Of a stretch of DNA of 52,004 nucleotides, positions 23,778 to 48,457 are shown piece after piece (the first letter of the stretch is position 1; each line of letters starts with the position of its first letter). The position numbers and the translations under genes are program-made. The stretch comes from Diploschistes diacapsis. Its lineage: Eukaryota. The notes under the pieces were generated by a model. It ran no database searches, had not been told where the DNA came from, and saw only the letters and a list, made by a program, of their open reading frames with translations. Location of the stretch: the NCBI GenBank assembly GCA_023645945.1, contig JALAIB010000010.1, positions 1-52,004 of the forward strand, read 5' to 3'.

Positions 23778-24313
23778 CATGCTCTTGAGAACTTCAATAA
23801 TATCCTCTCATACACACTGTTGGATCATCACAATTATTACATTGCTGGCCTCAGCAAAAATGTTGATATGCCTAGTCTGTTACCTCAATGAATCATTACC
23901 CTTCGTCGATGAAATAAGGTCTGTGGTAGCTGCTACCAAAGGTGCAACGCTTGGCCCCTATTAACCTCCTGTCCAAGCGCCTCTCCACTCTCTTTCAATT
24001 TCCGCTTCCTGCAACACAGGTTATACATCATTCAGCGCCATCGATTTGCCAGTTTTTCACATTTGTCCTAAGTGCTTCCAACCTCTGATCTGGACCTCTT
24101 TCTCCGTACGCAAATGTGATATCCCAGCGGATCAGAAGTCCAGTGCTGGCATTCCGGGTTGGCTCTAAGGCCACCTATATCGATGGGGGGGAAATGGAAG
24201 GACCCTGGAGCCTCTAAGGGCAAGACTTATTGAGGTATGTGGTGATGCAGTTGGGTCCTGCCGGGCACCGGTCTTGAGAAAGTAGACATGAGTTTTACAT
24301 TATTCAACTACGT

Positions 24314-24344
24314 TATTCGTTATGGTATTCGTTATTGTATTCGG
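24314..24344. repeat. Short tandem 12-mer TATTCGTTAT(G/T)G x2.5
   Basis: tattcgttatgg tattcgttattg tattcgg seen directly. Confidence 0.7.
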
Positions 24345-26699
24345 TGTTTGGTAATCGAATGCATCATTCTTCAAAAGCTAAGAAATCATAAAAGTAAGAA
24401 CGAGCCTTCTTTGTCCTAGAATTCGGCACGAACTGAGGAAATGATAGGCTAGACGCCAGTGTGAATCGCTGCTTCGTTCAATGGCAAACCAAATCGTGCC
24501 AAAGGCAAAGAAATCACAGAAACCTATTGTGGTCGTAATTCGTCCACTGTCTCCTGAGCATACAATTGCCGCATGTTCCACACTGCCCATTGCCGAATCC
24601 CCTATGCAACCAGAAGATTTAGTAGAGGCTCTATGCCCATCAAGGAAATGTGGATTGTACTTGTGCACACCCAAAGATATTGTTAGCATTCTATATTTGC
24701 CCATTATCTTTTCTGATAGCCAGATTGTTCAACAAGCCTTCATTTAATCTCTTTGGACTTCGAACATCGAACTCTCCGCACTACTGCCGCTACCTATCTA
24801 TGGTGTTATCGTTTTTTTGTGGGATCTATCTTGTCGAGCGAGCTCGAGTAGTTGTAAGTATACCATATAAGCAGGTAGAACTACCCTTGTCGCCAGATTT
24901 GCTTTTGAGCAGACCCTGTCCGAGACGAATATGCCCGTACTAAGCTTGGAATAACCCTTCGTGGCCATTTGGCCATGACTTTACTTGCTCAATTTTTATA
25001 GGTTTGAAGACCTTTTGAGCCCTTTCGATTTTATTAGACTGAGTCATTTTCTTACCCTTATTTTTATTTAATAGTTGATTGGAAACCTCCGGTTTTTGCT
25101 GATTAGCCGTGTCTGATGGACCTAATCAGTGCTGGTCAGCCATATGATTAGAAGACTCACGTCAGTTATATATACGATTATGGCCCTTTTTATGCATAAT
25201 TGACGTGGGTGTTTTTAAAATGGCCGTAGCTATCTAAACAGGGCTTATAACGGCTTGAATTGACATTCCCGACGCAATAAATAGTCAGAGCGTTGAGATG
25301 TATCACGTCTGCCTGGACTTTATTCTTCTTGCCCGAGGTAATGCGCTTTTTCTAGACGTTCCAAGACACTATTAAAAGCCTCTCTCAGATATTTCTTCGA
25401 GTTAATTACTCTCTCGATGTCTTTGCGGGCACAATTTAACAGACACTATCAGTCACGGATGTCCACCATTTAAAGATTCAGCATATAAAAAAAAGCAGCT
25501 TCGACCTCGCTCAGCGTCTGACCCTTTTCCAATTGCGAAACAGGAACTTCGTTGTCCTAGGCTCTATTAGTGCTTGACAGAGGCCCGGGAGCCTCTGATA
25601 TTCATCGCCTCTTTTTCAATCTACAAGCATAGACTTGACAATTACCTTACGCTGATCAAATGCGAGTATTTCTCCTGCGCTTGGCACCTCAAGGCTTTCT
25701 AATCGGTTGCATACTGTCTGCTGTGCCCCCAACATAGAGCTGTTTTCAAGTACGACTTTCGAACTTTCAGCTACCGACAGCACAGAGCCTTTCGTGTTTT
25801 CGAAATGTCCACAATTGCAGTGTGCCGTGAGATGTACTTGTGCATATACCCGGTTCAATCCGGTACAGTACTCAAGCTGGGAGACGGTGTATACTCTTAT
25901 GTTTTATAGGGTTGTGTACCTAGGTCGGATACACCCCCCCTGTGATGTCGACGGTGGATCAAGGAAATCTAAAACAACATAGCCTATGAGCGATAAATCT
26001 TACTTCTTCGGCAGTGTTGAAACACGGTGTATATGAATTGTCCCTAATGTTATATGATCGATGCCTCGCGGCCTGACTGAGTGCCCGTGAGTCGAAGATT
26101 ATCCTGTTTTTTTTCTTCAATGGCGTTATTTAGGTTTGTTTAGGTGTTTCCCTTCCAGTAAGAATTCCTCCCTTGCTCCTAACCAATATATGCCTTTAAA
26201 ATGGAGCCTAAGTTCTGCCTGCGGATGGAGCAATAGGTATTTGTCCCAGTCTTAGCAATCCAGTCTTGGACTCAGCGCGACATACCATATGCATACACAT
26301 ACGATGCATTAAAGCAGCCCTATTGACTCGTTTTGTCCTTAAAGACCCAGCACTCCACAAATAGTTCCTCAGTAATTAAACCACGTTGGGGCGATTTTGG
26401 CCTCCTGAGAGGAATCCGGCCTGTTTGACAAGAGCCTCCTTCTGTCCTACGTTGCGTCTTAAGAAAATCTCTATCGAACTTCGACTTCTATTCTGTAGCC
26501 GCAGCTACGACTCTTTGAAGTCAAGAGTGCCGTGGCTTTTCCTGCCTAAGCGCAAACCCAGGTTTAAGTGGTAGACGAGACCCGTGCCCATTGCCCGAAA
26601 GGATGCCCGAAGAATTCTATCGATCGTCGGATCCTAGGTCCCATGCTTAAGTTGGATCTGCTCAGGGCTTGTACAGACCAGGTCTTCCGGTGCCTATCC

Positions 26700-29600
26700 C
26701 TCTCTGTCATTCTCCAGGGTAGTGTTTGCTAACGAGCCTCTCCAACAGCTTCTTAGCCCAAGTAGCGGCAGCTACGTCTCTGATAGTCCTGTGCATTCTA
26801 CAGAGCTTTAACAGCTTCTCATACCATTTCACCAAGCGGGTGGCGCGTTCCTGGCTGCAATATTATACTGCCGTGACTGTTGGTTTCTTCCGTCGGGTCA
26901 AAGTAGGGGGCTATTCAAATTAGATGCTTCTTTCTTTGGAACCCTATAATTGGGCATGTAGTTTGCTGCTGCGCCATAGCGACCTATAATGTTACTCGTC
27001 TGTTGCTTCTGGGCATTAAGTAATGCAAGTTTTATAAAACCCCGATTCCTGCCGAACGGGTTGCTGTGCTAAGCTTGAGATAACTAGTTTCTGTTTCCGT
27101 CCCGTGGTGACCTTGTTCCTCGTGGAGTCCCATGAATCCAGGCTCTATTCCCTCCCTTGCCCGGCTCTCTTCCATTGAGATATGGGGCACTGTTTTACCA
27201 CAGATTTCCATCCTGCTCCTTCCCGTAAACTGTTAGAAATGTCTGAGAAAAGCTACTAAAAGGGGTGTTGTGTTCGCTGCGCAGATTCCTGAAGCTTTCG
27301 TGCGTGCTTTTATCGTCTACCTGACCATTGATTCCGCCGCCAAACGCAGATGCAACCACTCGTTGGGATATACGGCTTCTTCCTCGGCTCCGGCATCGAA
27401 CACATTCCAAACATCCCATGCCGTCGCCGAAGCGTGGACGAATACTTGAGCGTCCTTCTGGTCGTACTATCGATTTGGCTTGGACAGCTAAAGCCGTGGT
27501 TGTGTGACTTCGGATTCTGTGGCATGTGAATGCTACTATTCTATTTGCGCAGCTTTCCAGCTCGAGTCGTAGAGCCGGGCTGTTTAACAAGAGGCAGGCG
27601 AAATGATGGCTGCAGGTTTTGTATCCTTTATCAGTGGCATAAGATGTCAAGGTCCTTAATCTGGCAAAGTAAGAACTATGAAGAGGACATGGTGGTGAGA
27701 GGACGACAGCCTGGCCCGAACCGCTGCTGTGTCATTATACCTGCGCGCGATTAGCTGGGCTTCGTCTCTGGCCGAAAGTGAAGATAGTATAACGGGGGTC
27801 TCGAGCGTGAGTGCAGGTCCATCTTGGTGTTCCGGTATATATCGCTGTAAGCTCCTGAGCCACACGGCTATAGAAACGCCAAATTCAAGGCCTGCTTTCT
27901 ACAGCCCATAGCTTCACGACTGATGGCTTGTTCAACAGTATTTTCCAGCTGAGCCGTCATCGCCTATGAATGCCATGAACAATAGAGATATGGCAGTTCG
28001 TGCTGGGGCAACAGTATTGGCGCCGGGGTTCTGAATGCTTTGTACTTGTGGCTCCGTGTAGGGAAAAAAAGGCCCCGTTAATCCACACCTGTCTCTTGAA
28101 TCTCAGTTCTCTCTCTGAGATGGCAGATAAAAGCACGGTCTGAAATCCATATCAGAGCGCACCAACACAGTTATTATATCCTGGTCTTAATTTTTTGAGG
28201 TATGATAGTAGGAGTTGAAGTCTCAACAAAGATGAATAATTTTAAATCCGCCAGTAATCCAGAATTAATCTTCTCACGGCCTGGGTTCCGAGCCCATATT
28301 GTAGTTTTGGTGTAAGACCCGTCTTTTCCTACGACATGATACAGGTGAGATAAATTCCTAAAGCAAAATATAGCGAGAAGACCTGCCGATTGGGCAACGA
28401 GAACTACAGCTTCTGCCCACGATTTCCTCGGGTAATAGTTTCGTGAAGCTGTTGGTGATCCAAAGACCTCGCTTGAGCGATGTTACGGAACGCAGTTGGC
28501 TTCGTGAGATTGCAAGAAGGAAGCGATTGGCCTAGACTTGCTTGGTATCCAAAGAACAAAACAGTCCTACTTCGATATTTTAGTAGAGATTCCAATCCCA
28601 AGTCTGGCTGCTTTGGCCATCAGATACCGTAATAGAAGTTTCTGATTATAATTATCTCCCTTATGTCCATCGGCAAGTCTTATCACTGAATCCTTCCATA
28701 TCTGCACTGATCTATGGACCTGTGGATTATAAGTATATGATACCTGATTTTCTTGACATCTGTGCAGACTTGCCTTTCCTAGGCGGAGATTAAGTGTTCC
28801 GAAGCAGGTACGTTGAGAAATATAAAAGAACAGCAGGATATTTGGCGGGATTATAACATCCGGAGAAGGGACAATGGGCTCGAGCACACTCCCACTGCCA
28901 GTTTACTGCTCGAAAACTCCCCTAGGCCGTCACATAGCCAGAGATAAACAAAAGACAACTTAAGTCGATCATCAGGGAGCACCGCTAGGGCTCCAATGCC
29001 ATGTCCGAAGTCCTCTCCTTCGATCAGAAACGCAACAGGCGATTAAGCCCTGTAAGCCTCGTTCACTGCATATTCGTTGTGTCCGGTCTTGATCAAGTTA
29101 TCAACCAAGGCCCCTTATATTCGCTGTGGACGGGGCCGCCTTTATTCCTCTCAGAGGAAGATTGAGCGAATTGATCGCTATGTCTTCGCTAAAGTCTATC
29201 TGATGAGCAGCGAAAAGTGATTGGGCGTGAGCAAGCTTTGTTTCAAGCATGATCCTACGTAGCTCAGGAGTGAACAGGCCGGGTATCTATCGGGCACATA
29301 ATTAGCAGGCAAAATCTCTAGTCAACTAAGCAGAAGGGACTCACGATTTCACAAGCACGCTTCGCAGTCGGAGCAGAACAGGATTCGCAAGCGGATTTGC
29401 CAGAAGAAAGACCAGAACAAGGAGGCCAAGCGGGCACCACACCGGCAGTCAATAGCTTCCTCGCGCAGGCCAAACAACAGGGCTCCGGCAAGGAGGTGGA
29501 CTGAAATTGTGTCGAATCCTATCATCGTCGATCGTTAGCCTTCCGGAACTCTATCGCAGGATGTGCGCATACCAGACGGGGCAGAGAGGAGTCAGCCTCT

Positions 29601-30620
29601 GTTATTACTAGATTATCTTCATGTAGTAACAGACGCTAGACTCCAGTTCGGTGCCTGAATAGCTTTTAGGATTCCCGATCCCGCGTCGATTTCTCGATAG
29701 AGAGTTAGCAGATAGTAACTGCTCTACGGTCCTTAGCCCTTTAGTTTCCAACTAAGTATTTCTCAAAATTCAATCCGCAGGTCCTGAAGGCTTTAACGAA
29801 AAGTGTGTGCGAGTCCGTGCTTTGACTTCGTTCCGATCCGAGTACAACCAGCGTGTATGAAAGACAGTCACGCTGCCTAGGGTTTTTCGGCACCATCGTC
29901 CCTAGAAATTTCGATGGTGGCCGCCAAAGAGGGATATTATTCCTCTCTGACATCGAGATGTTATCCAGACAACAAGGTGTCTATTGCCTGCCAGTTTCTC
30001 CTGTACAAGGATAGACAAAGGTTCTTGTGTGACGAAAGTCTGGTCGCCGTCTGAAGAGATAAACTTGTCGATCGTTCTTTTCGTTCTGTGCCGGAGCTCT
30101 CTCCATGTAGGCACCCAACTTAAAGTAGAATGCTATATATTTAGCTGAAAAGATTATGTATTTTCTCGGTACATAAACAGGAAAACAGAGCACATGGAGG
30201 CTGTATCTCCATGGGTAACTCAACACAGAACGCTGCTCCTGGAGGAGGTCGCATCTGGGCTCAGGTCTTGCCTTCCTACATTCACCTATTTGCGAACATG
30301 CATGATAGCATAAAATCCAGGACCTGTTCCAGCTTATGTTGGACTCATCGTCCGCTGCCTAGCGTTCGGGGGTGTTGATAAGAGTAAGTTGTGAGAGCGA
30401 AGTAAGCAGCTGCGGCGCCTCCCACGGTAAGCCGCCATCGCTAAGCGTATGGCACCAACTTTGCCGGATCGAGATGCCTGCCACCTGTTCTTCCACGTTG
30501 ACCAGAAATTCTCGTGCTCAAACTAGTCGAGATACCCGAGAGTCTTGTTCGTCTACCTGGACAAAGAAGCTTTCGTCATTATGTAGTTTCGATACCTTGA
30601 TTCTGCCTTGCTGACTCAAC
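26700..30620 (-). pseudogene. Decayed NACHT - winged helix - ankyrin (NLR-like) gene; boundaries approximate
   Basis: Minus-strand fragments in the expected order, broken by stops and frameshifts: KFISSDGDQ..VVWITSR (~30070-29953), WYAHILR* and CLACARKLLT (29477-29448), PVHS*A, then ankyrin-like GKASLHRC, LMAKAARLG, GANTVAPARTAISLLFMA, RTLTSYATDKGYKT (27656-27615), DAGAEEEAVYPNEWLHLRLAAE, NIAARN and EAVKAL. Confidence 0.5.
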
Positions 30621-31169
30621 GGCGGACGTTTTTGATGTATGTACGTGCATTCTTTCGAAGTAGTGATCTTTACGAAGTTGTCCTATCTTCCCCATATAAC
30701 AATCTACCATATCGTCAAGATAGAGGCTCCGCTAATTTCTGAAGAGAGGCGCCTTAAATGACCGGTCAAGGCTCCTGAAAAATGATATGATGCACCTACA
30801 TAAGATGCGCGATGGTGCTTGAATCGAAAAACTAGTCCGTGGACTCCTTATGACTCGCAAAATCTTCGGTCTCTTGTTGCCTGCCACCTCAATATACACA
30901 TCATTCTCTTTCCGTATCCTCACGGAGAGTTGCATTGGCGTATGGGTAAGCTGAAATATCTATCTGTAAGTAGTAGACAAAGACAGGTGAAGCCTGATGT
31001 AAACTCCTATACTAGGAAAAGAGTACGCTAGGTCATGTATCACACACCTAGAGTTTCTTAATTTCTTGCGGATTCTTGTTTCCGTCTCAAGATCCCCGTG
31101 CCTGGAGAGAAAGAACAGGGAAGAACAGATACACCGGCGCAGAAAGAGTCTGTAATCTTGCTTTGATTG

Positions 31170-31930
31170 GGTGATTTTATTACCAAACTTGGAGAATATT
31201 CTCAAACAGCTAAGTCTCTTTGGAGATTCGTACATTTGAAGATTCACCCTTCCTACCATAGCTCTTTTGTAGGGAGGGGAAATAAAAAAGGTATGTATCT
31301 TCCGTAGCACTATTATAAGTGGGTTCGAGAGCCCAGGAATTGCTTACAGCAATTGAGACGAAGCCAGTCTACAGCATTCATTTCCGGAGAAAAAGTTGTA
31401 ACCAGAGTCCTATATCATCGATATCTCGGATGTTAATGCTGCTCAAAGTTCTCTGAATGGTCCGACATATTAAACAGGACAATTCCGAGAGCTCCCGCAA
31501 CATGTAGCTGATCTATTCTTTCGTACCCAAAGGCAAGGTAAAGCGCCAAAGAAGCTGTTGTTAGTCCTGTGTCGCTTGTGATTACCTTTCAAGCGCGAAA
31601 CCCGATTTCCTCAGGTGATTAAGGAAAAATAATATGCATCCGAGATCAGCAGTAGTGGCCCTTTCTCCATAACTGCTAGCAACTACATTTCGGGACAATT
31701 CCTTAATTCTTGGGGCCGTGTCTGCAGATATGCAGCGGAGGCACGAAGCACTCCACCCATCCGTCCTACATTCTCAGCACAAATTAAGAATCTATCTCGG
31801 GATAAAGAACTTTTTTCGACAGAACTCCGTCAAGAGGAAGCGAGCGCAGCCCTAATAGACTTGTCGGAGGAACAGAAGATTCGGATTCGTCTGAGCTCTC
31901 AAGGTTTATATATTCCTGCTCTTCCTTGAA
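31170..31930 (+). pseudogene. Possible highly decayed Ser/Thr protein kinase relic
   Basis: Colinear degenerate fragments VHLKIHPSYH, an intron-like GTATGT, RRHEALHPSVL (cf. HGDLKPENIL), KLRIYLGIKNFF (cf. LKIADFGL) and FV*AL (cf. DVWSL). Weak, by-eye similarity only. Confidence 0.25.
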
Positions 31931-32846
31931 GTGCACTTAAGAGGTTCCCAGATCAGCTTTCGGATATTAATGAGACAACACAAGCCCTCGCTCATGCACT
32001 TCCTGCTGCATTTCCCGCAGGCCTCGAGGATATGGATCATTTCGAAGGCAAGCCTGATGTTCTTTGTCCGAGTTAATCATCCAGCCTATCTTCGTTCGCC
32101 TGTCCACATGGTTTGAGAGATCATATTGCCTGCATTAAACGATATAGGAAGAGCTCTGCGGTTCTGGTACACATTCGGTCGAAGTTTTAACCAGCCAGGG
32201 CCGCGCCCTCCGTACCGAGCATACATGTATCGCTTGCTGCTATCTCCCGTTTCTACTCGTATATTTCTGATTTGAAAGGGTGATCCAGAAGCAAGTCCTG
32301 GGCCATTTGGAAATCTAGTATCCAGAAGCTACTCCCGTGCCAGTGTGGTTCATCTTGACAGGCGAAGTATACAGATCTACTAATAAGAAACTCTCCGAAA
32401 GCGAGACAAGGCCGATCCTGGCAGACTACGTGTAGGAAGAAGGAAGTTTGATGTAGAGCAATACTGTCGGCTCAAATCAAAGAATGTCCTATTGTATAAT
32501 GCATGCTGCTCTTTTGCTAGTACCACCACTTTTTCAGTCTGTAACAAAGTGCGGTAGTAACGATTCCACCTGTCTTTTTGCGAGTATATTCAAGAAATAA
32601 ACATGCTTGAACCTAGTATCAGCTTTATTCGCATGCTAGCCCTAACGAAGCTTTGGTGCCTGGCTCTTTTCTTCGTATTCGGCCAAAGAACCTAAAGACC
32701 GCTTCTTCTCCGGGATAGCCAAAAGTGTCATCCCATTTCAGGATGCTGCGACCGTTTCTGTATGTCTTGAAACTCGCCAAAATAATGTCCGCCTAATACA
32801 GAGACCTACCAACCGCCTCAACACAAGGTTGTTCGTTACATTGCAC

Positions 32847-32868
32847 CGGGCTCGGGCTCGGGCTCGGG
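32847..32868. repeat. Hexamer microsatellite (CGGGCT)3CGGG
   Basis: Seen directly. Confidence 0.85.
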
Positions 32869-33331
32869 TATTGAGGAAATGATTTGATCCTCAAGCCTTC
32901 ACAGCAGGTTGCAACAGAAAATGGCTGCAGGATGTCTCGACCTATTTCTGCATCTCACATATTCCCAATAGATGTCCTTGAATAGGGAGCTATCAAGTTG
33001 GTGCCGCGGTAGGCGCTTTCCTCTCCCAAGTCGACTCCGAGATTGGGGCGTGCTTTAGTCTGCGGAGTCCGACCTGGGGTGGGCACATTTTCCAGCAGAG
33101 GAAGTTTATATAAACTCTAGACCTGTTTCTGGGTACTCCATGCAGATTTCCTATAACGAATCATTATGCATCTTGTAAGGTTCGGCCTCACATGCTTTCC
33201 GGCTTTCTCGAGAGAAGAGGAGTGCCTGTGAATGACTGTCCGCCTGTTTCGGGCAGGTCTCCTGAGGACAACTATGTTGTAGCACTGTTTTCAACATGCA
33301 AGCATCAACATCTTAAAAGGGAGAAGGACGG

Positions 33332-33354
33332 GAATGGCCCTGAATGGCCCTGAA
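33332..33354. repeat. Tandem 10-mer GAATGGCCCT x2
   Basis: gaatggccct gaatggccct gaa seen directly. Confidence 0.8.
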
Positions 33355-36300
33355 AACCCTTTTCTATTTTGCAATCCCCATCTCTGTCAGTACTTGTGCT
33401 TTTCCCATTTTGTCAAGACTCAGGGTTGATCCTGTCCACAACCAAGTCGAGCAAGGGAGCAAATACTCTGCGTCCCATTGACATGGTGTATTTTTTGTCG
33501 ATGGGAAATTACTACTATCTGCAAGATCCGACCCTAGCTCTTGTTACATTCGTCTCACAGGAACATAATGGTTGGAGCCTAATTCTCATCTTGATAATGG
33601 ATGGGCCTTCTCGCTAGTGTTTCGGGAATTATAGTCTCCGCATACCTGAAAATGCGACGTTAGTAGCCTGGGTGGCCCTTTAATTCCTCACGATGACCTT
33701 ATAAACGAGACTATCATATTCCTCTTTTTTTCCTAATGTAGTGTGCCGGCGTATAATCATCTATCGTTCTCTGGCCTCTTCTCCAGAGGGAAGGAAATCG
33801 TGATGGAGCCGCAGTCTCTATCGCAGACCATGATTTCCCAACAGGGAACTGCACCGGGCAAACTATTCCCTCTTCTTCATCGGCAATCGGGAGGGTTATC
33901 TTTGATGAGATCCAATCTGCGTGCAATTGAATCTTCGTCGCGAACCAAATCTCTCTTGCAATGAGCTGCACCAACGAACCATATCCTACCTCTCTTTGTG
34001 GATGGCTTTCTATTGGCGACCTCCAAGACTTTTAATTGAGACGCTAGCGATACAATTCGAAGGCCATGATGAGAGACTACAGACAAGGCTCTCTTCCTCA
34101 AACATATTGTGGGTAAGTTGACCGTCGCCGCTCCAAAGTGCTAGGTGGACAAATGTTAAGAGCCAGCCTGACCAGGATTAGTAGGTGGAATGGGAATTCC
34201 CTCTCCCTTTTACATATTTCGCCGAATAGAGCTCCTCATGCTTAGCACGCTTTCGATATTCCCATCGTCTCAGTGATAACCCACCCCCACGCTTTTACCT
34301 GAGAAGCCTACTTAGTTTATACTTTGTTGCTTGCCCCTGCCATTTGCTGTCGCTGAGATGAGCACGTTCTTATCCTAGTTTGGAGACCGTACATGTGCCA
34401 CGGTCGTCGAGGTCACGATCCGTAAGCGCAAGCAACGAGCATAACCGCGAAGTAGACATACTTGAAGCGTATGTACCACTTAGGTCCCCCTAAGAATAAA
34501 TAGAGACTTGTGACTTTAGCATTCTCTTATGTAGTAGCAAGGACAAACCTTTGCTTATAGGCTCTTTGAAGCAACTCGTGAGATCGCCCAGGTCCCTGAG
34601 CATCTGATTTCCGCTCTTTCCCTAAGCCTTTGCTCAGTAATCTCTTAATGCGAATGAAGTTTTGCTCTAACTTTGAGCATTCAACGATAGTTACCAAGCG
34701 TTCCTATCATAAATCCAGTCCAAGACAATACACCGTACGAGAAGACCTAAATTTCGATAGCGTCTGAGATCTGGATCCACACAAAGCAGCTTCCCAATGG
34801 TATGGTCAGGGAGTCGATTGTTCACCTAAACTGTTGTTAGATGTGTGAAAAAGTTACGGACACAACAAGCGCCGCATGCAGCTGAGCCAGTGTCACGGGT
34901 CTGATTTTGCTTGCGTTTTTGTCAATCCGCGGTCTTCTGGTCCGCCTCGCAATTGCTGTTCATTATAACTCTGTCGACAAGAACAGCCTATCATTACATT
35001 ATCGTTTGGGGAAAGACAACAAGATGCCGCACGTCCATGTGGGTCAGGTTATATAGCTCCGGAGGTCGGTTCTCCTTGAATTGGCTGATTGGTTCGAGCC
35101 GACTGCGACCTCTGCTGCTCTAGTTGTTGAAACAGCAGTAGCAAGCCCGTTTTCAATGACAAGGGCTTCAACTTCGCTGTCACAATTCTCCTGCGCGGCT
35201 TTGTTCCTTTGCCTTACTGTGCAGCAAGCCGTCCAGGAGATATATTATGTATAGTAGTGGTGTTTAGCTGGGCCACCAGGCGCGAATGTATGTCATCTTA
35301 TGGTCATGGAAGACTTTCCTACCAATGGCATTAAAACGACGAACGACGCCGTCGAGGAAATTATGGATGTGGAGCAAAGCTTACTGTCACCGGCGAAAGC
35401 GTCTCCCGCAATGATAATCCGATGTTGGTCCCTCTCAACGAGGAAAGATAGGTTGGATTCAATACAGGTACTAGCGACGCCCAGTCCGGATATGCGGTTG
35501 GCCGCTTTTCTTCTCTAAAACGCTTCGGTTCATCAGAGCATCCTCGCGAATGCTTCGGAAATCCCGCAACGGCAGGATAAAAGCAGGCTATATTTGATTG
35601 CACCAGGTGCACTCTTCCGCTTTGCCGGAATTTCGTGTTCGAACTGATCCTACAATTTCTCGAGAACCTTGAGAGGGTTATCAGTCATATTCTTGCCGGA
35701 AATTCTTATATGGGGTAACAACCGGATATCGCCTTGGGCACCGCTTGGTCATTACTTTTCAGATGGATTTTATTGTTTAATCGGTTTCCTGTATCTCCCT
35801 CGATAATGTTACGGTCTTGCAATACCCTTTCGAAGTTCCTTGACTTGTTCAAATCATGACAGTGTCGAACAGTACTTGCAGCGTTGTGGATGCTTTAGGC
35901 TTTTCTTATCCATGGACTGAAGATATCTTCACCTGCATAGCTATGTGGTTAGCTCCAAGGGTTTGAGAACCTTATTGCTTCTTGCAGCTTTTGCTAACCA
36001 TAGGCTTTACCTTTCCCGAACATTAGCTGGAGTCTAGAGGACCGCAGCCTCATCTATCTTGTCTTACTCGCTTTCTTGACCGTTCTCCGTCTCTTCAAGC
36101 AGTTCTCACTTGCCGACGCACAGCCTGGGTGGGTCGTTCTCGGTTAAACACTGAGAGTCTTCATAGCATGAGGGATATGCTGCGACATCAGTCGATGTTC
36201 TAGCCTCGTACATGATAACGAGGACTTGCTTTTTCCATGCTCTTATTTGAGCTATCTTTCACTTCATCAGTCTATACATCACATTATATTATGTGTGCAC

Positions 36301-37054
36301 ACTAACTGTGCTTGACTTAGACCCGTTTCCATAGCATGGTTGCGCTTCGAACAGCTTTGTGTAGCGCGAATAGCACAAGCTCGATCCTTGAAGCAGACCT
36401 TCCTTGGAATCTAGCCGGTGTCAACGGTCGAAGAAGCCTGCCTAACAGATGGCTTTGTCTCTTCGGCGGTGGGGATATCAGTCTTCACTTCCCGGGCTGA
36501 GGCTAGTTGCCTTTTGCGAAATGTTCGGTCGCTTGGACGCGATTCTGTTGTTTCTGTTAATCCTACATGTGCGTTTCTATGGTCATTTTATTGCTTATAA
36601 CATACTATTCCTTTGTAGGCCTAGAATGCGCACGTCGACAACCTTTCCAAAAACAGCCCATAAGCTAAACGCACCTTGCACGGCTGACTCTATTTCTTGC
36701 GTAACCCTGTAAGCTCTAGGAATATGAGACAATGCCGTGCCGGCAACTTAGCGACCTAAAGCTGGGAGTTGACGTTTGGATTGTATTGTCCCGTGCGACA
36801 GACCAGAACCCAAAAGGTTCGCAAGGGAGCTCTGCATCGGTTTATGGTTCTGCAACCACTAGGATGATCTGCACCACTTAAGTTGCTCTTTCATCTCAGT
36901 AGACGGGAGAATAGTAAGCAACTCAATCCGGACAAATCCCGAGAAGCCTGTTGATGAACGAGCAGATAGTGTACTAGGACTCAAGCTCCCAGACGGTCGA
37001 CAACATATGATACGGATAAAGTCCATGCTGTTATAAATGTCCGTTAGGCAATAC

Positions 37055-37288
37055 TCATATATAGGGGAAATATTTGGATGGCGCTCATATATATATATAG
37101 AAAGGAATGGTGCTCATATATAGTGGGTTGGCGTTCATATATATAGACAGAGGTCTAGGTCATGCTCATATATAAAGGAGATGTAATTTGCGCTCATATA
37201 TAAAGGGGAGATCCACTTGATGATCATATATAAACGGAGGATCCAAGAGTAGTCATATATAGAAAGGTCCAAGTGTTGCTCATATATA
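37055..37288. repeat. Periodic array of nine TCATATATA cores separated by divergent 12-22 bp spacers
   Basis: Cores start at 37055, 37085, 37114, 37135, 37166, 37194, 37224, 37253 and 37280 (spacing 30, 29, 21, 31, 28, 30, 29, 27). Confidence 0.92.
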
Positions 37289-37733
37289 AAGTCGAGACTT
37301 GTAGAGGATGAAGAGGAAGGATGAAAGTGTTTTAAAAGTGCAGGGAGTGGGGGGACCTTTATATGGATTTTTAACTCGGATCCCAATTCGGCGTGTTTTA
37401 CATTAACAAACATGGAGTGAATGCCACCTCCAGGCCCCAGCGCGTTTGCTGCTGCTGACAAGCGAACTGACGCGAATTGAAGGAATGACTCGCATAAAAG
37501 TCAATGTAAGAACGCATAGAGCAGCTGATCTCCGCAGTATGGAGGTCTCCAGAATTCCATTGCTGAATGTCCAGACCTTGGGCAGAACACTACTCGATCT
37601 CTAGATAATATTAACTTGGAGCGGATACCAGCTGGATTTTATTCATCACTAAACCTCCGATGCTAGGTAGTAGAACAAGCCTCGTTTGTAAACGGTATCA
37701 AGTAAAGACCATGTGCACCATTGTCCATATCTT

Positions 37734-40700
37734 CTACCGTAACGGACTCTCAAAGTACTCGATTCCTCTCCCTATTCCTCGTCGATTGGGCGTCTCAGGC
37801 CTGCTGTGTCCTTGCAACGTATCTGGAGTTTCTCTCCCTTCCAAGAAACTTGCCGGTACACGCAGCGTACCACCATCTACTCCGCGCTCACTCTTGGTTA
37901 AAACTTCTACTTCTCCGGGTGGCTTGTATCCCCACTTCTTACCTTCCCTGTATACTTCCTCCAGCATTGTGTCTATGATACCAGCATCCCGGAACTCTTC
38001 GAATTTTCGAAGTAGCTTTAGCGCCGTGTGTGCATCTTCGATACTGTCGTGGTTACCAAGCTGAACGTCTTCCTTGAGTAGATACCACGCTAAAAAACGC
38101 AGTGAGAGCTTTCGCTGACGGGCCTTGATGTAGAAGAGCTCGACGGTATCGAGCACCTGAGATTTTGGAATATGAATATTGATGGTTCTGAAATCCTTCG
38201 GCAGACCATGACCGACAAAGATGCAGCCGAGGTTGGAAAGTAGCCAGAGCTTCTTGTAGGCCACCTTAAGCGGCACTAGGTTATGCGGCGAATGTTGCGG
38301 GTCAAGGTCCCCCTTCTCGAGGCCCGAGTACCTAGTCAAGTAGTCAACGATATCTTCCCTTACTGTGATATAGTCGTTTATGAAGGGTACGCCCTCATCT
38401 TCTCCGCTACCACGGAGTACCGATACCCGGGCTAACCCAAGCCTAATTGGGCGGACCACCTCGCGATCTCCATCCGCTTTGACCTCAATTTCTTCCTGCT
38501 GTAGCTTAACGAATTCTGTATCGATTGCCACATAGGTACCCGAGCTCGGAGCTTCGGCCAATGGATCCAATACCTGACAATGCTGAAGCAGCCGGTTGCT
38601 AAAGACTCGTTAGCACATGCGGTTGCTTTGACGTAGAGACCGCTTACTTGATAGAGTAATCGGAGTACAGCAGAGACGTGTCTAGGTTCGCCTTCCAGGT
38701 GTCGTCGACAGCTTGCCTCGCCGTAGCGACTTGAAAAGCGACGATTGCAGGCAGCTTCCAGGAAGACGGGAAAGTTAGGGCATCTTCCCTTGGGACCTTT
38801 CGAACAAGGAAGTCATTGAACAAATGCCAATTAGAACACTCGGCGCTCGAGGTTGTAGAGATGTCGGCTGCACGAATAATCAGTGATTGGGTAAGCAGGC
38901 TCTCGATCGGACCAACCATTGATGAGCGATACAAGGTGTGATTTCTGATGCTCTGTACTGCTGACATCCACTAAAACTCCCACTAGATCGTAAACTTTGA
39001 TAATGTGCATGCCTTTCTCGAGATGTAATCGCAGGTCTTCCCCTTCAAAGCAAAAGAATTTGCCATTATCCACAATGACGCCAATCGAATCAGGCAGCCA
39101 ACCGGGGACAGCCCAGTACTGCCGTGCTTCGGGGGATTTCAGAGCGGCGTTGATCATAAGCACATCTGGCATCTTTCGCACCCCTTTGCGTGTTGCAAGC
39201 TGCTGGTACCGACGGCATTTGTCGCACCAACCGCGTGTCTGAGTCTGCAACTCCATGCTTGCTTTGAGCACTTGAGAGAACGTAGGAATGGGGTGTCGGT
39301 GCCTGTGATTTGGCGAATGGGTTTGCTGGTACGTGAGATCCGTAATGTAACCACCACCGGGTCGGACCGTTTCGTTGTGACAATGAACGCAGCGTATGCT
39401 CGTCACAGCGTCGACAGCGAGTGTCTGCTCAAATCCTCCAAGAGAGGGCGTAATCCGCCTGTAATCGTCGGCGGTATGTGAGAGAAGGAACCTGCAAGCC
39501 GACTGTATCATGTCCGCAAGAGCAGTTCCTTGACTGTTCTCTTCCAGCAAACCCATTCTGTTTGCTTGGGGTATGCTACTGAATGCTTTGAGAAAATTTG
39601 TTGCTTGACAATTCTGGCCTTCGGCCTTCTCCAAGGTATCGAACAGAAATCCAAGCTCACACAAAAGACACGTATCATTCATACAAGAGGTAGCGGTGTG
39701 ATGCAGAGCGAGATTTCGAAACAATGGCGTAAATTTCAAAAGTTGCAACAGAGGATTCGTGTATGAGTTGGGAATATGGGTCTCAAGTCCCGAGTACCGA
39801 GTCTTATTGTAAAACTCAAAATCGAAGTCGTCTACACCAAACTTACTGTACTTGATCTCAACATTCCGATAGATGATTGGGACGTCTGATTTCGTGGGAT
39901 TTTCCAGCAAGACCTGAGCAAGAGCGTCCTGCAGCTCATCTTCCCTGCGATCGATCTCCTGGTCACGCTCCGATTCCCGCGCTTTCTCGCTCAGAAACTT
40001 GGGAGCAGTGATACTCGAGCCGTTCGTTTCCGGAGCCCGTGTCTTTTCGGCTTGATTTCGGTGGCCCTTGCGTGGATTGGGAGCCCAAAGACCAACTTCG
40101 TTCTGACGAGCAATTTTAAGTATCGCAGGATCTATCTTGCCCCGAGGATCTCCAATCTCGAAAAGGAGATTATTCGACCATGCTGAAAGCAATTGCTCCC
40201 GATAGTATGGCATACCGACGGTACTAAGCGGGCTGGATCGCGTTAGTTAGCGTTTCCGAGCCACGCATATGGGCAACCCACACATCTTGACTAACTTCTA
40301 GGAGCGGTACAGGTTCAGCTACGTCGCCCCAATCAGGAGCAGCGTTGGAGAACTCTGCAAATTGCAGCTTGGAGGGAGAGCCCCATAGATGTACGAAGCC
40401 GTCAGCGTCTGCAATGGCCAGAGCTTCGCCAGAAGGAGCCAGAATGAGGCCCGACATGTAGGTAGATATGTTGGCTTGCCTAAGATTCACGGTATTGGAG
40501 TTCATCAGGTCAACAACCTGAAGCTGTCCGCCTTGGGACGCTAGGATACAGGTGGTTGACATTTTCGGATGCATCTGGACATGGGCAGCACCGGCATGAA
40601 AAGGTATAGGTGGAAGCTGCACCATTGCTCTTAGGTCGTAGACGTTCGCAAGGCCAGCAAGCATAGGCGTGCCCTGTGGACGATTAACCCAACCACAAGT

Positions 40701-41534
40701 CACCAAGTAGTTATTCCTGGCGTCCATGTCACATATACCGACATTGTTTGTCGACAAAGTGTTGACAACGCGAAGATTATCCGCATCAAGCAAGTTGACC
40801 GATCCGTCGGTGGTAGCTGCACAGATGTACTTGCTATGCTTCATCATCACATATTCATGTGTCGTGCTAATCTATTCCGAGTCAGCTTTCACTAACAGAA
40901 CATGGCGGGTCATCAAGACCTTCTCAACAACGCGACCCTTTTCCGTATCCACTTTCAGCATAATGCCTTGACAGCCAGCGGCAATGATATAGCCATGATC
41001 CTTGCCGACAAAGCTCATGCATCGCAAGTCTCTCATGGCCTCGTCCCTGGGCTATGTAAGCATCACTTCGGTGAGTGCATGGGCGGTGCGTACGTGAGGT
41101 GCCATATCGTCACACCACGTCGGGATGCTAGATGGATACTGGTGGGCGCAACCGAAACGATCCCCCGCTCGTGAAACAGCAATTGTTTGACGGGACCTTC
41201 ATCTGAAGGATGCCCTCGGTATGAGGTGTATCTTCGTAGGTCAGGTCCATAGAAGGAGGTTATTCGGCCCTTGTATACCAGTCAACAGAAAGCTCAATCT
41301 GCCTCCTCACCGGGGCACTCACGTACTCGTTACCAAGCCAGAGCAGCTCTTGCAGTGTGTCGAAGGCAAGAGTGCTGGCAGGCGTTGGGAGATCATGGGT
41401 TGAAGGAGGCGGAATGGTAACACGATTAATCTGTGAAGAAGCACGGCATCAGTATTCATGAATCCAGCAACGACAATGCAGTGCGGCGCCGCTATGGTTG
41501 GATGCTTACTTACCTCATCCCAGTCGGCCTCCAT
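37734..41534 (-). CDS. PAN2: PAN2-PAN3 deadenylase catalytic subunit Pan2 (WD40 + pseudo-UCH + DEDDh nuclease), ~8 exons
   Basis: Starts MEADWDE (41534-41514). Further exons ~41430-41323, 41269-41094, 41046-40920, 40871-~40284, ~40232-38918, ~38868-38648 and ~38599-37734. Motifs [45 protein letters not shown] and [11 protein letters not shown]. Confidence 0.95.
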
Positions 41535-46220: not shown

Positions 46221-48457
46221 CCCTGCAGGAGAGAGTCATTTGAGATGGGTTCGCTGTACAAAGCTCGGTGGACATTTGGAAGGTTCCTCGGAGGTTGGGG
46301 TTCACCCCTAATCGAGAGCGCGCTCCAGCAGCTCATTCGAGCAAAGGCAAAAAAGTTGCATGTAAACCAAGCCAGTACGGGAAGTACTGTACAGAGTATT
46401 TGAACTACATATGTAGATTGAATTACGGGGAAACAGAACAGGGTTTCACTGGAAGCAACAGCTGGCTGGCAGCTGGCCATGTGCTTCACACATTGTAGAC
46501 GATTGCAGACCGAGCTTCTCCTCGGTCTCTTACTCAATCTGGTAATAGGGAATGGCCACGGCCTTGGGCTTCGTTCCCAGAAAGAAAAAGCCGGGGGGGG
46601 GGCGAGGGGCGGTATTTAGATAAATGCTACGCTGCGTCACAGGGATCCCCCCCAGAAGGCCAAAGCCAAGCTCTAAGAGAGGAGAATATGGGCAAGTGAA
46701 CGTATGGAGTATGGGACGGCACGCCCACGTGCGCGCGATGCCGTCCTATTCCCCCATGGGGGTTGGGTGATGTTGCTATTTTACGTAGAACAAGCAGGTT
46801 AAGACCGGGTGCAGTAGTACAGTCAGGTGCCAAAAGTAGTTAGGTACACCATAAGCGGCAGTAAAGAGTTGACTGTCTCTTTACTGCCGCTTATGGTGTA
46901 CCTAACTACTTTTGGCCTAGTACTGTAGTAGCCAATTCTCGTAAAGAGAAAGCGGGGCAAGCTAGCAGTTGGGCGCCAACAAGGGGGGCTGTACGTCTGG
47001 GGAGTTTGCTGGATAATTTTAATTCCGAGGCCGAGGCTAAAAGCCACGGATGCGGATCTCCCATACAGGGGACGAGCGGGAAGGCGGGATCGCCGCTGGG
47101 CAGCATGATCATCACCAGGGTTCCGGTGCCTTATTTTGGGCAGCCACTCGGAAGCTGGTTCACGTTCTCGAGGATAATTACTCTCTCTCCATATGCACAT
47201 TTTATGCAAAATTCGTCTAATTAGTAGGTTGCCCAATAATCTTAACGAGTCACGAGTCATGATGAGCCTCTGCTGCGAGCAATTGGCAACGTCATCCATC
47301 CCCATGTCCTTCGACTTAGCCGGCTGCAAACTAGCCACGACCTGGGCTATCCGATTGGCGCTGTAAAACCGGCGAAACCGCGAAAAGTCTACTCCATAGT
47401 CTATTACGACCGCCCCCCCCCTGCTTTGCCAATTATTGTTTTCAGACCAGAGACAATGCTGTGGCGTTTTAACGTGGGGGCCGACCGCCTTTGGCCTTCC
47501 CGTCGTTGCACCTGCATCTCGAGATGAGAAGGAGACGATCCGCATGGTTGGCAAAGATAGCCGAGAGTATGTATCCCAAGTACTTGGCAGTCTTACTTAC
47601 ACAGCTGAAGTTTACGAGAAGGACATTTTGCCGCAATGCCGTCTGACTCGCCCACATGGCGCCCCCAAAGCCACCGAGTCTGGTGGCTTTGGCAAAACCT
47701 TGGGAAACCATTCGTCTTCAGCTCTATAACCCGCTCCATCGTCGTCCAACTGCGTCCAACTGTTAAACCGAAGGCCAAAAACAGGGATTGATGAGCTGAG
47801 AAGAGTTGGGCGAGCTAATAGTTGGACGACGATGGAGATTGTACGCCTCTTTTTCGAACGTCTTACTTGCTTGCCCATTGTCTCCTCGGCCCTCACCACT
47901 ACTGTGTCCCCTTCTACCATGCCTGCCATGATCAATAGGGCGTGTTTCCAAGCGGCAATAGTCGAGCAGTGCTGCTGACTAACTTTATTCAGGCTAGGAT
48001 GCAAGTCCACCAGGATGCAGTCGGCTTGTTTCTCCCCTTGCCCAGAAGCCATGTGGTCCAAGAGCGGTCATGGCGCAGCTCCGGAAATGCTCCCACCGCG
48101 TGGATGCCGTCGTTCCTCGAGCTCGTGTTCTGGGCGTCGAAGTTTTGTACGAGACATATTTTGATATGTCGTGTCGATGTTTTTGATAGACCATGCTCTC
48201 TCTGCTCCAGGCACCCGCCTTAGCGTACTGCAATTTGCTGCAGGGTCGCACCTGTCCAGGGAGATTTGGATCTGCAGCCCCTGTCTTGGGGATGGATTCT
48301 CTGAGCGGGTCATAGGCTAGCTTTCAAAGTGGATCTGCTCTGGATGGGAGCTAACAGGGCACTTCTTCTTTTTTTTTATAAGCTCTCCCCATCGTCCGCC
48401 TCATACGATCCGGTTTTGGACTCCTTACGGTTTCCTCGAGACTAACAGCAGGCCAAG

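What the first reader, a model, noticed from the sequence alone, without database searches (positions are those of the whole stretch)
37055..37365. Repeat-spacer array: nine invariant TCATATATA cores at ~29-bp period with divergent spacers
Seen: the 9-bp core is perfect in all nine copies while spacers differ (GGGGAAATATTTGGATGGCGC; TATATAGAAAGGAATGGTGC; GTGGGTTGGCGT; TAGACAGAGGTCTAGGTCATGC; AAGGAGATGTAATTTGCGC; AAGGGGAGATCCACTTGATGA; AACGGAGGATCCAAGAGTAG; GAAAGGTCCAAGTGTTGC). Spacers share a loose AAGG..RTCCA..TGC ancestry. Unit lengths are mostly not multiples of 3, so the array is non-coding. A related inverted copy (minus-strand CATATAAAGGTCC, ~37353-37365) is followed on the minus strand by a CT-rich tract (37326-37303), like a core promoter reading into the array. 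Core conservation despite spacer decay suggests selection. Hypotheses (inference): phased protein-binding sites such as subterminal recombinase/transposase sites at the island end, a multi-TATA element, or a transcribed array processed into small RNAs. A neutral old minisatellite remains possible.
Basis: partly seen in the sequence, partly recalled or inferred. Interest (0 to 1): 0.72.

Follow-up and report, generated by a model that had tools for sequence, protein, structure and literature searches.

The report
Old fungal minisatellite with frozen TATA-like core
A short non-coding stretch behind the PAN2 gene of a lichen-associated fungus holds nine decayed tandem repeat units that all keep one identical 9-letter AT-rich core; this suggests the core is a protein-binding site, but no function could be tested.

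Summary
TCATATATA occurs exactly nine times in 52 kb, all on the + strand at 37055-37288, 21-31 bp apart (0.19 expected, 0 of 100 shuffles reach nine). The units are homologous but old. Spacer pairwise identity averages 0.35, yet spacers are more alike than composition-matched shuffles (0 of 500). All 9 invariant alignment columns are contiguous (P = 1.5e-6).

The array is non-coding: every frame has stops, and there is no Rfam family, tRNA or fold signal. It lies about 445-680 bp past the stop codon of a minus-strand PAN2 gene, at the edge of a roughly 13-kb tract without recognisable genes.

On the minus strand every core reads TATATATG, a perfect TATAWAWR octamer.

I found no transposon ends, no partner array, no relatives in metagenome or viral scans, and no RNA data. 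A relative about 2% diverged keeps the array, but that is too close to test constraint.

Best reading: an old degenerate minisatellite whose core is held by selection as a binding site, with TBP the only named candidate. A neutral or ascertainment explanation remains nearly as likely. Interest is modest.

The parts
37055..37309 (+). Degenerate tandem array: nine units of 21-31 bp, each an invariant 9-bp core plus a decayed purine-rich spacer. The end of the ninth unit is not defined.
37055..37063 (+). core 1, TCATATATA (minus strand TATATATGA)
   Evidence: TATAWAWR match on the minus strand
37085..37093 (+). core 2, followed by an extended TA run to 37099. The relative X2 lacks 2 bases here.
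   Evidence: table 4 (37087, 2 left out)
37114..37122 (+). core 3 (shortest unit, 21 bp). X2 has AG put in behind 37121; the alignment is ambiguous and the core stays readable.
37135..37143 (+). core 4. X2 has C for T at 37134, the base just before the core.
37166..37174 (+). core 5. Also TATATAAA on the + strand.
37194..37202 (+). core 6. Also TATATAAA on the + strand.
37224..37232 (+). core 7. Also TATATAAA on the + strand.
37253..37261 (+). core 8
37280..37288 (+). core 9. Also TATATAAA on the + strand.
37303..37326 (-). CT-rich tract on the minus strand, right of the array. It is variable in X2, so its membership of the feature is doubtful.
   Evidence: (indels at 37330, 37341, 37349)
37353..37365 (-). 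The letters are present but the match is not above chance, so it is probably not part of the feature.
   Evidence: 45 of 200 shuffles; 37355 A>G in X2
37734..40871 (-). Context: PAN2 gene (PAN2_N / UCH_1 / RNase_T exons), with its stop codon at 37734-37736. The array lies about 445-680 bp beyond it.

Best explanation
The feature is an old, non-coding, degenerate minisatellite: nine units averaging 28 bp. In this window it occurs once. It sits in neutrally evolving intergenic DNA about 445-680 bp beyond the stop codon of PAN2 in a fungus recovered from a lichen metagenome. All units descend from one ancestral unit. Their spacer parts have decayed almost to random similarity, while a 9-bp AT-rich core has stayed identical in every copy.

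My reading is that the core is a recognition site for a DNA-binding protein and is held by purifying selection, which makes the array a cluster of nine such sites. The only named candidate is the TATA-binding protein, because each core on the minus strand is a perfect consensus TATA octamer (TATATATG). On this reading the cluster would act as an open promoter-type or boundary element between PAN2 and the gene-poor tract to its left.

Shown: the array, the homology of its units, the contiguous invariance of the core, the lack of coding or structured RNA, and the TATA-consensus match. Inferred: selection, the identity of the binder, and any effect on transcription or chromatin.
For: There are nine exact cores against 0.19 expected. 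The units are homologous: spacers are more alike than composition-matched shuffles, 0 of 500 for both the mean-pair and the best-partner score. Yet spacer pairwise identity averages 0.35 (range 0.09-0.52), and every one of the 22 spacer columns has at least one change.

All 9 invariant columns of 31 are adjacent, P = 1.5e-6. A/T-consensus spacer columns also vary (mean share of the commonest letter 0.71), so a mutation process limited to G/C does not explain an A/T core that never varies.

All nine cores match TATAWAWR on the minus strand, and 22 of the 38 matches in the window lie at 37032-37290. That consensus is taken from the abstracts of PMC4457894 and PMC5703507, as shown in the listing.

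Among 17 foreign arrays that share this core, have at least 5 cores and have spacers of at least 12 nt, adjacent-spacer identity is 0.57-1.0. This array has the lowest value (0.54) with nine cores.
Against: No function was tested. No RNA run was available, no genome is held, and no distant relative could be fetched.

No gene lies downstream of the TATA orientation. The 640 bp to the left differ from X2 at about 1.9% and carry a 1-base deletion at 36612, whereas PAN2 coding sequence differs at 0.5%. No ORF there has a Pfam family.

Between X1 and X2 the array is no better conserved than its flanks: 1 substitution and 2 indels in 37055-37204. About 1.6 changes would be expected in 81 core bases at 2%, so zero observed is uninformative.

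The spacing is irregular (21-31 bp), so the sites do not share one helical face. The core was picked by eye from a scan of very many windows, which weakens the P values. Conservation just beside the core is expected from anchoring the alignment on the core. TATATA is low in information, and TBP is a guess by consensus only.
Confidence: 0.4

Rival explanations
1. The array is a neutral old minisatellite. Its units arose by slippage or unequal exchange and have since decayed. The unbroken core reflects ascertainment (the most striking array out of very many scanned windows) together with uneven mutation: an alternating AT core has no homopolymer runs and a single C, while the purine-run spacers are prone to indels. 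Turnover that needs intact microhomology may add to the effect. On this reading it has no function.
For: It is the only such array in the window. The flanks evolve at the neutral rate, and the array is no better conserved than they are between X1 and X2. TA-run length varies, as microsatellite slippage predicts: units 2 and 4 have longer runs, and X2 lacks 2 bases at 37087. The X2 assembly breaks into short pieces across 37175-37312, and its loose ends show a variant tail of unit 6, as expected of a variable tandem repeat. There is no neighbouring gene, RNA family or structure. Arrays with three or more of this core are common in public data: an estimated 1,400 stretches in the metagenome collection. 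A few have fairly diverged spacers, such as L140 at 0.57 with 5 cores and L035 at 0.61 with 7 cores.
Against: With uniform decay, nine adjacent invariant columns have P = 1.5e-6 by placement and 4.5e-9 by a Poisson estimate. A/T columns in the spacers do vary (0.71). No classical RIP signature is present. None of the 17 comparable foreign arrays combines so many cores with spacers this diverged.
Confidence: 0.35
2. The array acts at the RNA level as a 3'-end or termination module. Read in either direction it gives nine (UA)3 motifs, the yeast polyadenylation efficiency element bound by Hrp1. It would serve as a fail-safe terminator for read-through from PAN2, or for non-coding transcripts from the left tract.
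For: The array lies on the 3' side of PAN2, about 445-680 nt past the stop. TATATA is palindromic, so both transcripts carry UAUAUA. The abstract of PMC12458251, seen in the listing, states that Hrp1 binds (UA)n repeats found in mRNA 3'-UTRs and in terminators of short non-coding RNAs.
Against: No RNA data exist for this organism here, so no poly(A) site or read-through is known. The motif's role is documented for budding yeast, and its role in Pezizomycotina was not checked. The invariant block is longer than UAUAUA (it includes TC on the + strand), which (UA)3 alone does not explain. The distance from the stop codon is long for a fungal 3' UTR; that figure is recalled, not tested.
Confidence: 0.15
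3. The array is the subterminal repeat block of a transposon, or the edge of a mobile island: transposase or recombinase binding sites at one end of an element that fills the gene-poor tract.
For: Direct subterminal repeats with short conserved cores are typical of several DNA transposon superfamilies (recalled knowledge). The array borders a roughly 13-kb tract with no ORF of 180 aa or more and no Pfam hit in the 11 ORFs tested.
Against: There is no second array or inverted core cluster in the 37 kb to the left or the 15 kb to the right. No TIR or LTR pair is anchored at the array. No transposase or recombinase family was found. There is no RIP or other repeat scar. The 31-mers of the array are low-copy in X1, whose only loose ends are sequencing adapters. 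X2 is collinear to the left.
Confidence: 0.05
4. The array is transcribed and processed into phased small RNAs of about 29 nt.
For: None beyond the repeat-spacer look and the unit length of about 28 nt.
Against: The spacers are homologous to each other and are not foreign-derived. There is no fold signal on either strand: z = 0.81 and 0.43. No Rfam match was found. The array matched nothing in the viral or metagenome loci beyond a plain TA run.
Confidence: 0.03

Closest known systems
Minisatellites (VNTRs) with a conserved core inside variable units (Jeffreys-type; recalled knowledge, no paper opened)
   Same: Head-to-tail units of tens of bp, non-coding, with units that differ from one another while a short core is shared. 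There are signs of length differences between close relatives.
   Different: In the classical case the core is G-rich and shared across many loci, and the units within one array are mostly alike. Here a single array in the window has an AT-rich core, and its spacers have decayed to 0.35 identity.
TATA box / TBP site of RNA polymerase II core promoters (TATAWAWR; abstracts of PMC4457894 and PMC5703507 seen)
   Same: Every core is a perfect match on the minus strand, and four cores also match on the + strand.
   Different: A promoter has one or two such boxes upstream of a gene. Here there are nine in 234 bp with no detectable gene downstream and no evidence for a transcription start.
Yeast polyadenylation efficiency element / Hrp1 (UA)n site (abstract of PMC12458251 seen)
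   Same: The (UA)3 motif is present on both transcribed strands, on the 3' side of a gene.
   Different: It is repeated nine-fold and lies hundreds of nt past the stop codon. The invariant block is longer than (UA)3. The organism is not a budding yeast, and there are no RNA data.
Earlier scan finding e1-7568804: a fungal tandem array of 17 conserved 27-bp motifs with drifted spacers (AI note, unchecked)
   Same: The same architecture in a fungal non-coding region: conserved motif, decayed spacers, read as a binding platform of unknown partner.
   Different: A different genome, a motif three times longer, and T-rich spacers. No sequence relation was shown (one search found no look-alike).
CRISPR repeat-spacer arrays
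   Same: Only the visual pattern of an exact repeat alternating with dissimilar spacers.
   Different: The repeat is 9 bp, not 23-50. Spacer lengths vary from 12 to 22 nt and the spacers are homologous to each other. The context is eukaryotic, with no cas genes.

Membership tests
Minisatellite / degenerate tandem repeat | Head-to-tail units of roughly 10-100 bp | tested here: met
   Nine units of 21-31 bp with no gaps between them. TRF detects only the last 2.4 units.
Minisatellite / degenerate tandem repeat | Units descend from a common unit | tested here: met
   Spacers are more alike than composition-matched shuffles, 0 of 500. Repeat families D1-D3 reach 74-81% identity over 27-37 nt.
Minisatellite / degenerate tandem repeat | Length or copy-number variation between individuals | tested here: inconclusive
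   X2 shows a 2-base loss and a 2-base gain inside the array. Its contigs break into short pieces across 37175-37312, so copy number could not be read.
TATA-box core promoter | Match to TATAWAWR | tested here: met
   9 of 9 cores match on the minus strand.
TATA-box core promoter | A transcription start and a transcribed gene downstream | tested here: not met
   There is no conserved ORF to the left. That flank diverges from X2 at the neutral rate and has a frameshifting 1-base deletion, and no Pfam family was found. Start sites themselves cannot be tested without RNA data.
Hrp1-type (UA)n efficiency element | UAUAUA in the transcript upstream of a mapped poly(A) site | not testable with these tools
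   The motif is present. No RNA run is listed.
DNA-transposon subterminal repeats / mobile island end | Partner end in inverted orientation (TIR or inverted repeat cluster), a target-site duplication, and a transposase nearby | tested here: not met
   No inverted cluster or TIR was found in 52 kb. No family was found in 11 ORFs of the adjoining tract.
CRISPR-like array | Repeats of 23-50 bp, unrelated spacers of near-constant length, and cas genes | tested here: not met
   The repeat is 9 bp. The spacers are 12-22 nt and homologous to each other. The neighbours are eukaryotic genes: PAN2, SIR2 and PEPCK.
RIP-mutated repeat | TpA/ApT above about 0.89 together with (CpA+TpG)/(ApC+GpT) below about 1.03 (thresholds recalled) | tested here: not met
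   The 37001-38000 bin gives 0.88 and 1.18, and the surrounding bins are similar. Spacers keep many GG runs and vary at A/T columns too, so CpC-type hypermutation (earlier notes) does not explain the pattern either.
Known structured RNA / tRNA | Covariance-model match or a stable fold | tested here: not met
   0 Rfam matches at E <= 1 in 24000-38000. 0 tRNAs. Fold z-scores are 0.81 and 0.43.

The most novel reading that the evidence does not exclude
On this reading it gathers many copies of a general factor, either TBP on DNA or an Hrp1-like protein on (UA)n RNA. That would set a chromatin or transcription boundary between a housekeeping gene and a long gene-poor tract.
Probability: 0.15. Interest if true: 0.6.

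Novelty: new member of a known kind. Interest (0 to 1): 0.3.

Why it matters
If the core is truly under selection, the array would be a compact natural example of multimerised binding sites in a lichen-associated fungus. Cis-regulatory DNA in that group is, as far as I recall, little studied; I ran no search on this. It would also give a simple handle for pulling down the binding factor: a 9-bp core against a mutated core. If the array is neutral, it shows that ascertainment plus uneven mutation can imitate a 'repeat-spacer' design, which is useful for calibrating this scan. In either case it is a single small locus with no link to a gene function, so its weight is modest.

Tried and rejected
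- **Whole-genome search for other arrays.** Not possible: no genome is held for this window.
- **RNA evidence.** No RNA holder is listed, so expression is untested.
- **The more distant holder X3.** It has no cover between 36597 and 37363 at 2.8-3.5x depth, so it says nothing about presence, absence or an empty site.
- **Pattern scans** with three cores and gaps of 12-22.
The viral scan gave 27 stretches.
  - The hits are TA microsatellites or satellites with near-identical units.
  - blastn of window 33001-41000 against the metagenome loci gave no hit at E <= 1e-3.
  - The array itself matched only plain TA runs of 16-20 nt.
- **Literature.** 'TCATATATA' anywhere in the text gave 178 papers. 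Of the 20 listed, none is by title about a fungal repeat or motif of this kind. The search on minisatellite, conserved core, fungal genome and intergenic listed nothing relevant. Only the listings were read.
- **Earlier scan notes.** Nothing for this genome or this sequence. Two word searches gave analogies only.
- **Dispersed single units.** An nhmmer profile of the units finds only the nine array copies (E 5.6e-5 to 0.052). The next best hit has E = 4.7.
- **Decayed units in the flanks.** A by-eye match at about 37003-37031 is not above chance (116 of 200 shuffles). Nor is the inverted copy at 37353-37365 (45 of 200).
- **Coding potential left of the array.** A crude codon-usage scan gave a maximum of 10.9 in 24000-37700, against a window-wide 99th percentile of 10.9 and 13.1 in PAN2. 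Its power is weak and no clear exon appeared. ATG ORFs of at least 45 aa and the six-frame view show nothing protein-like.
- **Rejected readings.** RIP, structured RNA, CRISPR-likeness and transposon ends.
- **A G/C-only or CpC-type mutation process** as the cause of the invariant A/T core. It fits poorly because A/T spacer columns also vary.
- The same statistics were then computed from the window file by coordinates.

Full report
**The observation**

The window holds exactly nine copies of TCATATATA. All are on the + strand, between 37055 and 37288, and start 21-31 bp apart with a mean of 28.1. Dinucleotide-preserving shuffles of the window give 0.19 copies on average and never more than two. 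With one mismatch allowed, 12 further sites appear, scattered over the window on both strands (21 in all against 7.03 expected).

Tandem Repeats Finder reports only the last 2.4 units, which shows how far the units have decayed.

**Are the units related?**

The spacers are purine-rich on the + strand (A 45, G 55, C 19, T 34 of 153). In a MAFFT alignment of the eight complete units their pairwise identity averages 0.35, with a range of 0.09-0.52. That is low, but they are still more alike than composition-matched shuffles. Neither the mean pair score nor the best-partner score was reached in 500 shuffles. The repeat finder also recovers 27-37-nt families at 74-81% identity that link units 4, 5, 6 and 8, and pair units 1-2 with units 3-4. 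So this is a degenerate tandem repeat and not a set of unrelated inserts between repeats.

**Is the core's invariance more than decay would give?**

The alignment has 31 columns. Nine of them are invariant, and all nine are the core. The chance that nine invariant columns fall next to each other is 1.5e-6. Every one of the 22 spacer columns has at least one change, with a mean of 2.14 extra states. A Poisson estimate for nine unchanged columns is therefore 4.5e-9.

Spacer columns with an A/T consensus also vary (commonest letter 0.71, against 0.60 for G/C columns). A mutation process confined to G/C therefore does not explain an A/T core that never varies. This covers classical RIP, which the dinucleotide indices rule out anyway. 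It also covers the CpC-type hypermutation noted for other lichen fungi in earlier AI notes.

Three caveats apply:
- The units were defined by the core.
- The somewhat higher conservation right next to the core is what anchoring the alignment produces.
- The array was picked by eye from a scan of very many windows, so P values near 1e-6 are less decisive than they look.

**What the array is not**

- *Not coding.* All six frames have 2-8 stops inside 37055-37309. The 121-codon minus-strand frame that runs through units 4-9 has no Pfam family.
- *Not a known or structured RNA.* There are no Rfam matches at E <= 1 in 24000-38000 and no tRNA. Folding energies are no better than shuffles on either strand, with z = 0.81 and 0.43.
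- *Not visibly a transposon end.* The window has no inverted cluster of the core and no dispersed single units. No TIR or LTR pair is anchored at the array. No family was found in 11 ORFs of the adjoining tract.
- *The 'inverted copy' is not supported.* The letters at 37353-37365 are there, but 45 of 200 shuffles of that flank match a unit as well, and the relative X2 differs inside it. A left-flank 'decayed unit' that I saw by eye is also at chance level (116 of 200).

**Context**

No genome is held for the window. Its best DNA holder is labelled a lichen metagenome and may be the source of this DNA. The genes are fungal in type.

The minus-strand ORFs at 37737-38609, 38834-40246 and 40227-40871 carry RNase_T, UCH_1 and PAN2_N, so this is PAN2. 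Its stop codon is at 37734-37736. A SIR2-family gene and PEP carboxykinase follow to the right. The array therefore lies about 445-680 bp beyond the 3' end of PAN2.

To the left, from about 24 kb to 37.7 kb, there is no ORF of 180 aa or more, no Pfam hit in the 11 ORFs tested, no clear coding signal and no RIP.

**A close relative**

Contigs of run X2 ('organism A', holding 47% of the sampled words) cover the left flank and the first five units.
- In 36415-37054 X2 differs at 12 positions plus a 1-base deletion at 36612, about 1.9%.
- In the intergenic stretch 37314-37733 it differs at 8 positions plus five indels.
- In PAN2 coding sequence 37734-38100 it differs at only 2 positions, 0.5%.

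The left flank thus evolves like non-coding DNA. Within 37055-37204 X2 has three differences:
- a T>C change at 37134, just before core 4;
- a 2-base loss in the long TA run after core 2;
- an AG insertion next to core 3.

None of these destroys a core. However, only about 1.6 core changes would be expected at this divergence, so the comparison cannot test constraint.

Across 37175-37312 the X2 assembly breaks into pieces of 49-59 nt. Their loose ends show a variant tail of unit 6. This fits a variable tandem repeat but does not give a copy number. The more distant X3 has no cover over the array.

**Searches elsewhere**

A pattern of three cores with gaps of 12-22 is common in public data. The viral collection gave 27 stretches. 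These hits are TA microsatellites or satellites with near-identical units.

None is related to this locus. blastn of window 33001-41000 against the metagenome loci gave nothing at E <= 1e-3, and the array itself matched only plain TA runs. Among the 165 foreign core clusters in 143 loci, 17 have at least 5 cores and spacers of at least 12 nt. Their adjacent-spacer identity is 0.57-1.0. The window's array, with nine cores, has the lowest value at 0.54. It is an extreme case, not a separate class, and this sample was itself chosen for exact cores.

Full-text searches found no description of such an element; only the listings were read.

**What the core looks like**

On the minus strand each core is TATATATG(A). 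That is a perfect match to TATAWAWR, the budding-yeast TATA consensus given in the abstracts of PMC4457894 and PMC5703507 (seen). Of the 38 matches to that octamer in the window, 22 lie at 37032-37290 (6.86 matches expected for the whole window).

As RNA, in either direction, the core carries (UA)3. The abstract of PMC12458251 names (UA)n as the Hrp1-bound repeat of yeast 3'-UTRs and short non-coding terminators. Both are matches to a consensus and not tests of function.

**Verdict**

The feature is real: an old, degenerate, non-coding minisatellite whose 9-bp core has resisted the decay that erased its spacers.

- *Preferred reading (0.4):* the core is a protein-binding site under selection, TBP being the only named candidate, and the array is a cluster of such sites at the border between PAN2 and a gene-poor tract.
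- *Nearly as likely (0.35):* a neutral repeat, made striking by ascertainment and uneven mutation.
- *RNA-level (UA)n terminator module (0.15):* the location 3' of PAN2 suits it.
- *Transposon end (0.05)* and *small-RNA array (0.03):* both poorly supported.

Nothing functional could be tested here, because no RNA data, whole genome or distant relatives were available. Interest is therefore modest.

Noticed in passing
window 46815-46930: A 54-nt inverted repeat, 89% complementary, with only 8 nt between the arms. This is a long hairpin or palindrome beside ORF 46826-47596 (-).
   Followed up: no
window 21300-21611: A 75-bp tandem repeat of 4.2 copies at 73% matches. It lies inside the long + strand ORF 20397-21818, which has no Pfam family. 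It is probably a coding repeat in a lineage-specific protein.
   Followed up: no
window about 24000-37700: A roughly 13-kb tract with no ORF of 180 aa or more, no Pfam hit in the 11 ORFs tested, no RIP signature and no Rfam match. That seems long for a gene-free stretch in a fungal genome (my impression, not checked). Its nature is unexplained.
   Followed up: partly
window 37140-37269: In run X1 the 130-nt unitig over units 4-8 has mean word depth 243.9, against 114.3 and 103.3 for the flanking contigs. Its two ends coincide with loose ends that read like library adapter sequence, identified from memory. This could be local coverage bias at tagmentation hot spots or a collapsed duplicate; it is not resolved. 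If it is a collapse, the true array is longer than the one assembled.
   Followed up: partly
window 37032-37290: 22 of the window's 38 matches to the TATA consensus octamer fall here. Only 16 lie in the other roughly 51.7 kb.
   Followed up: yes
window 37330-37355: Three indels and one substitution separate X1 from X2 within 26 bp just right of the array. This is locally denser than in the flanks.
   Followed up: no
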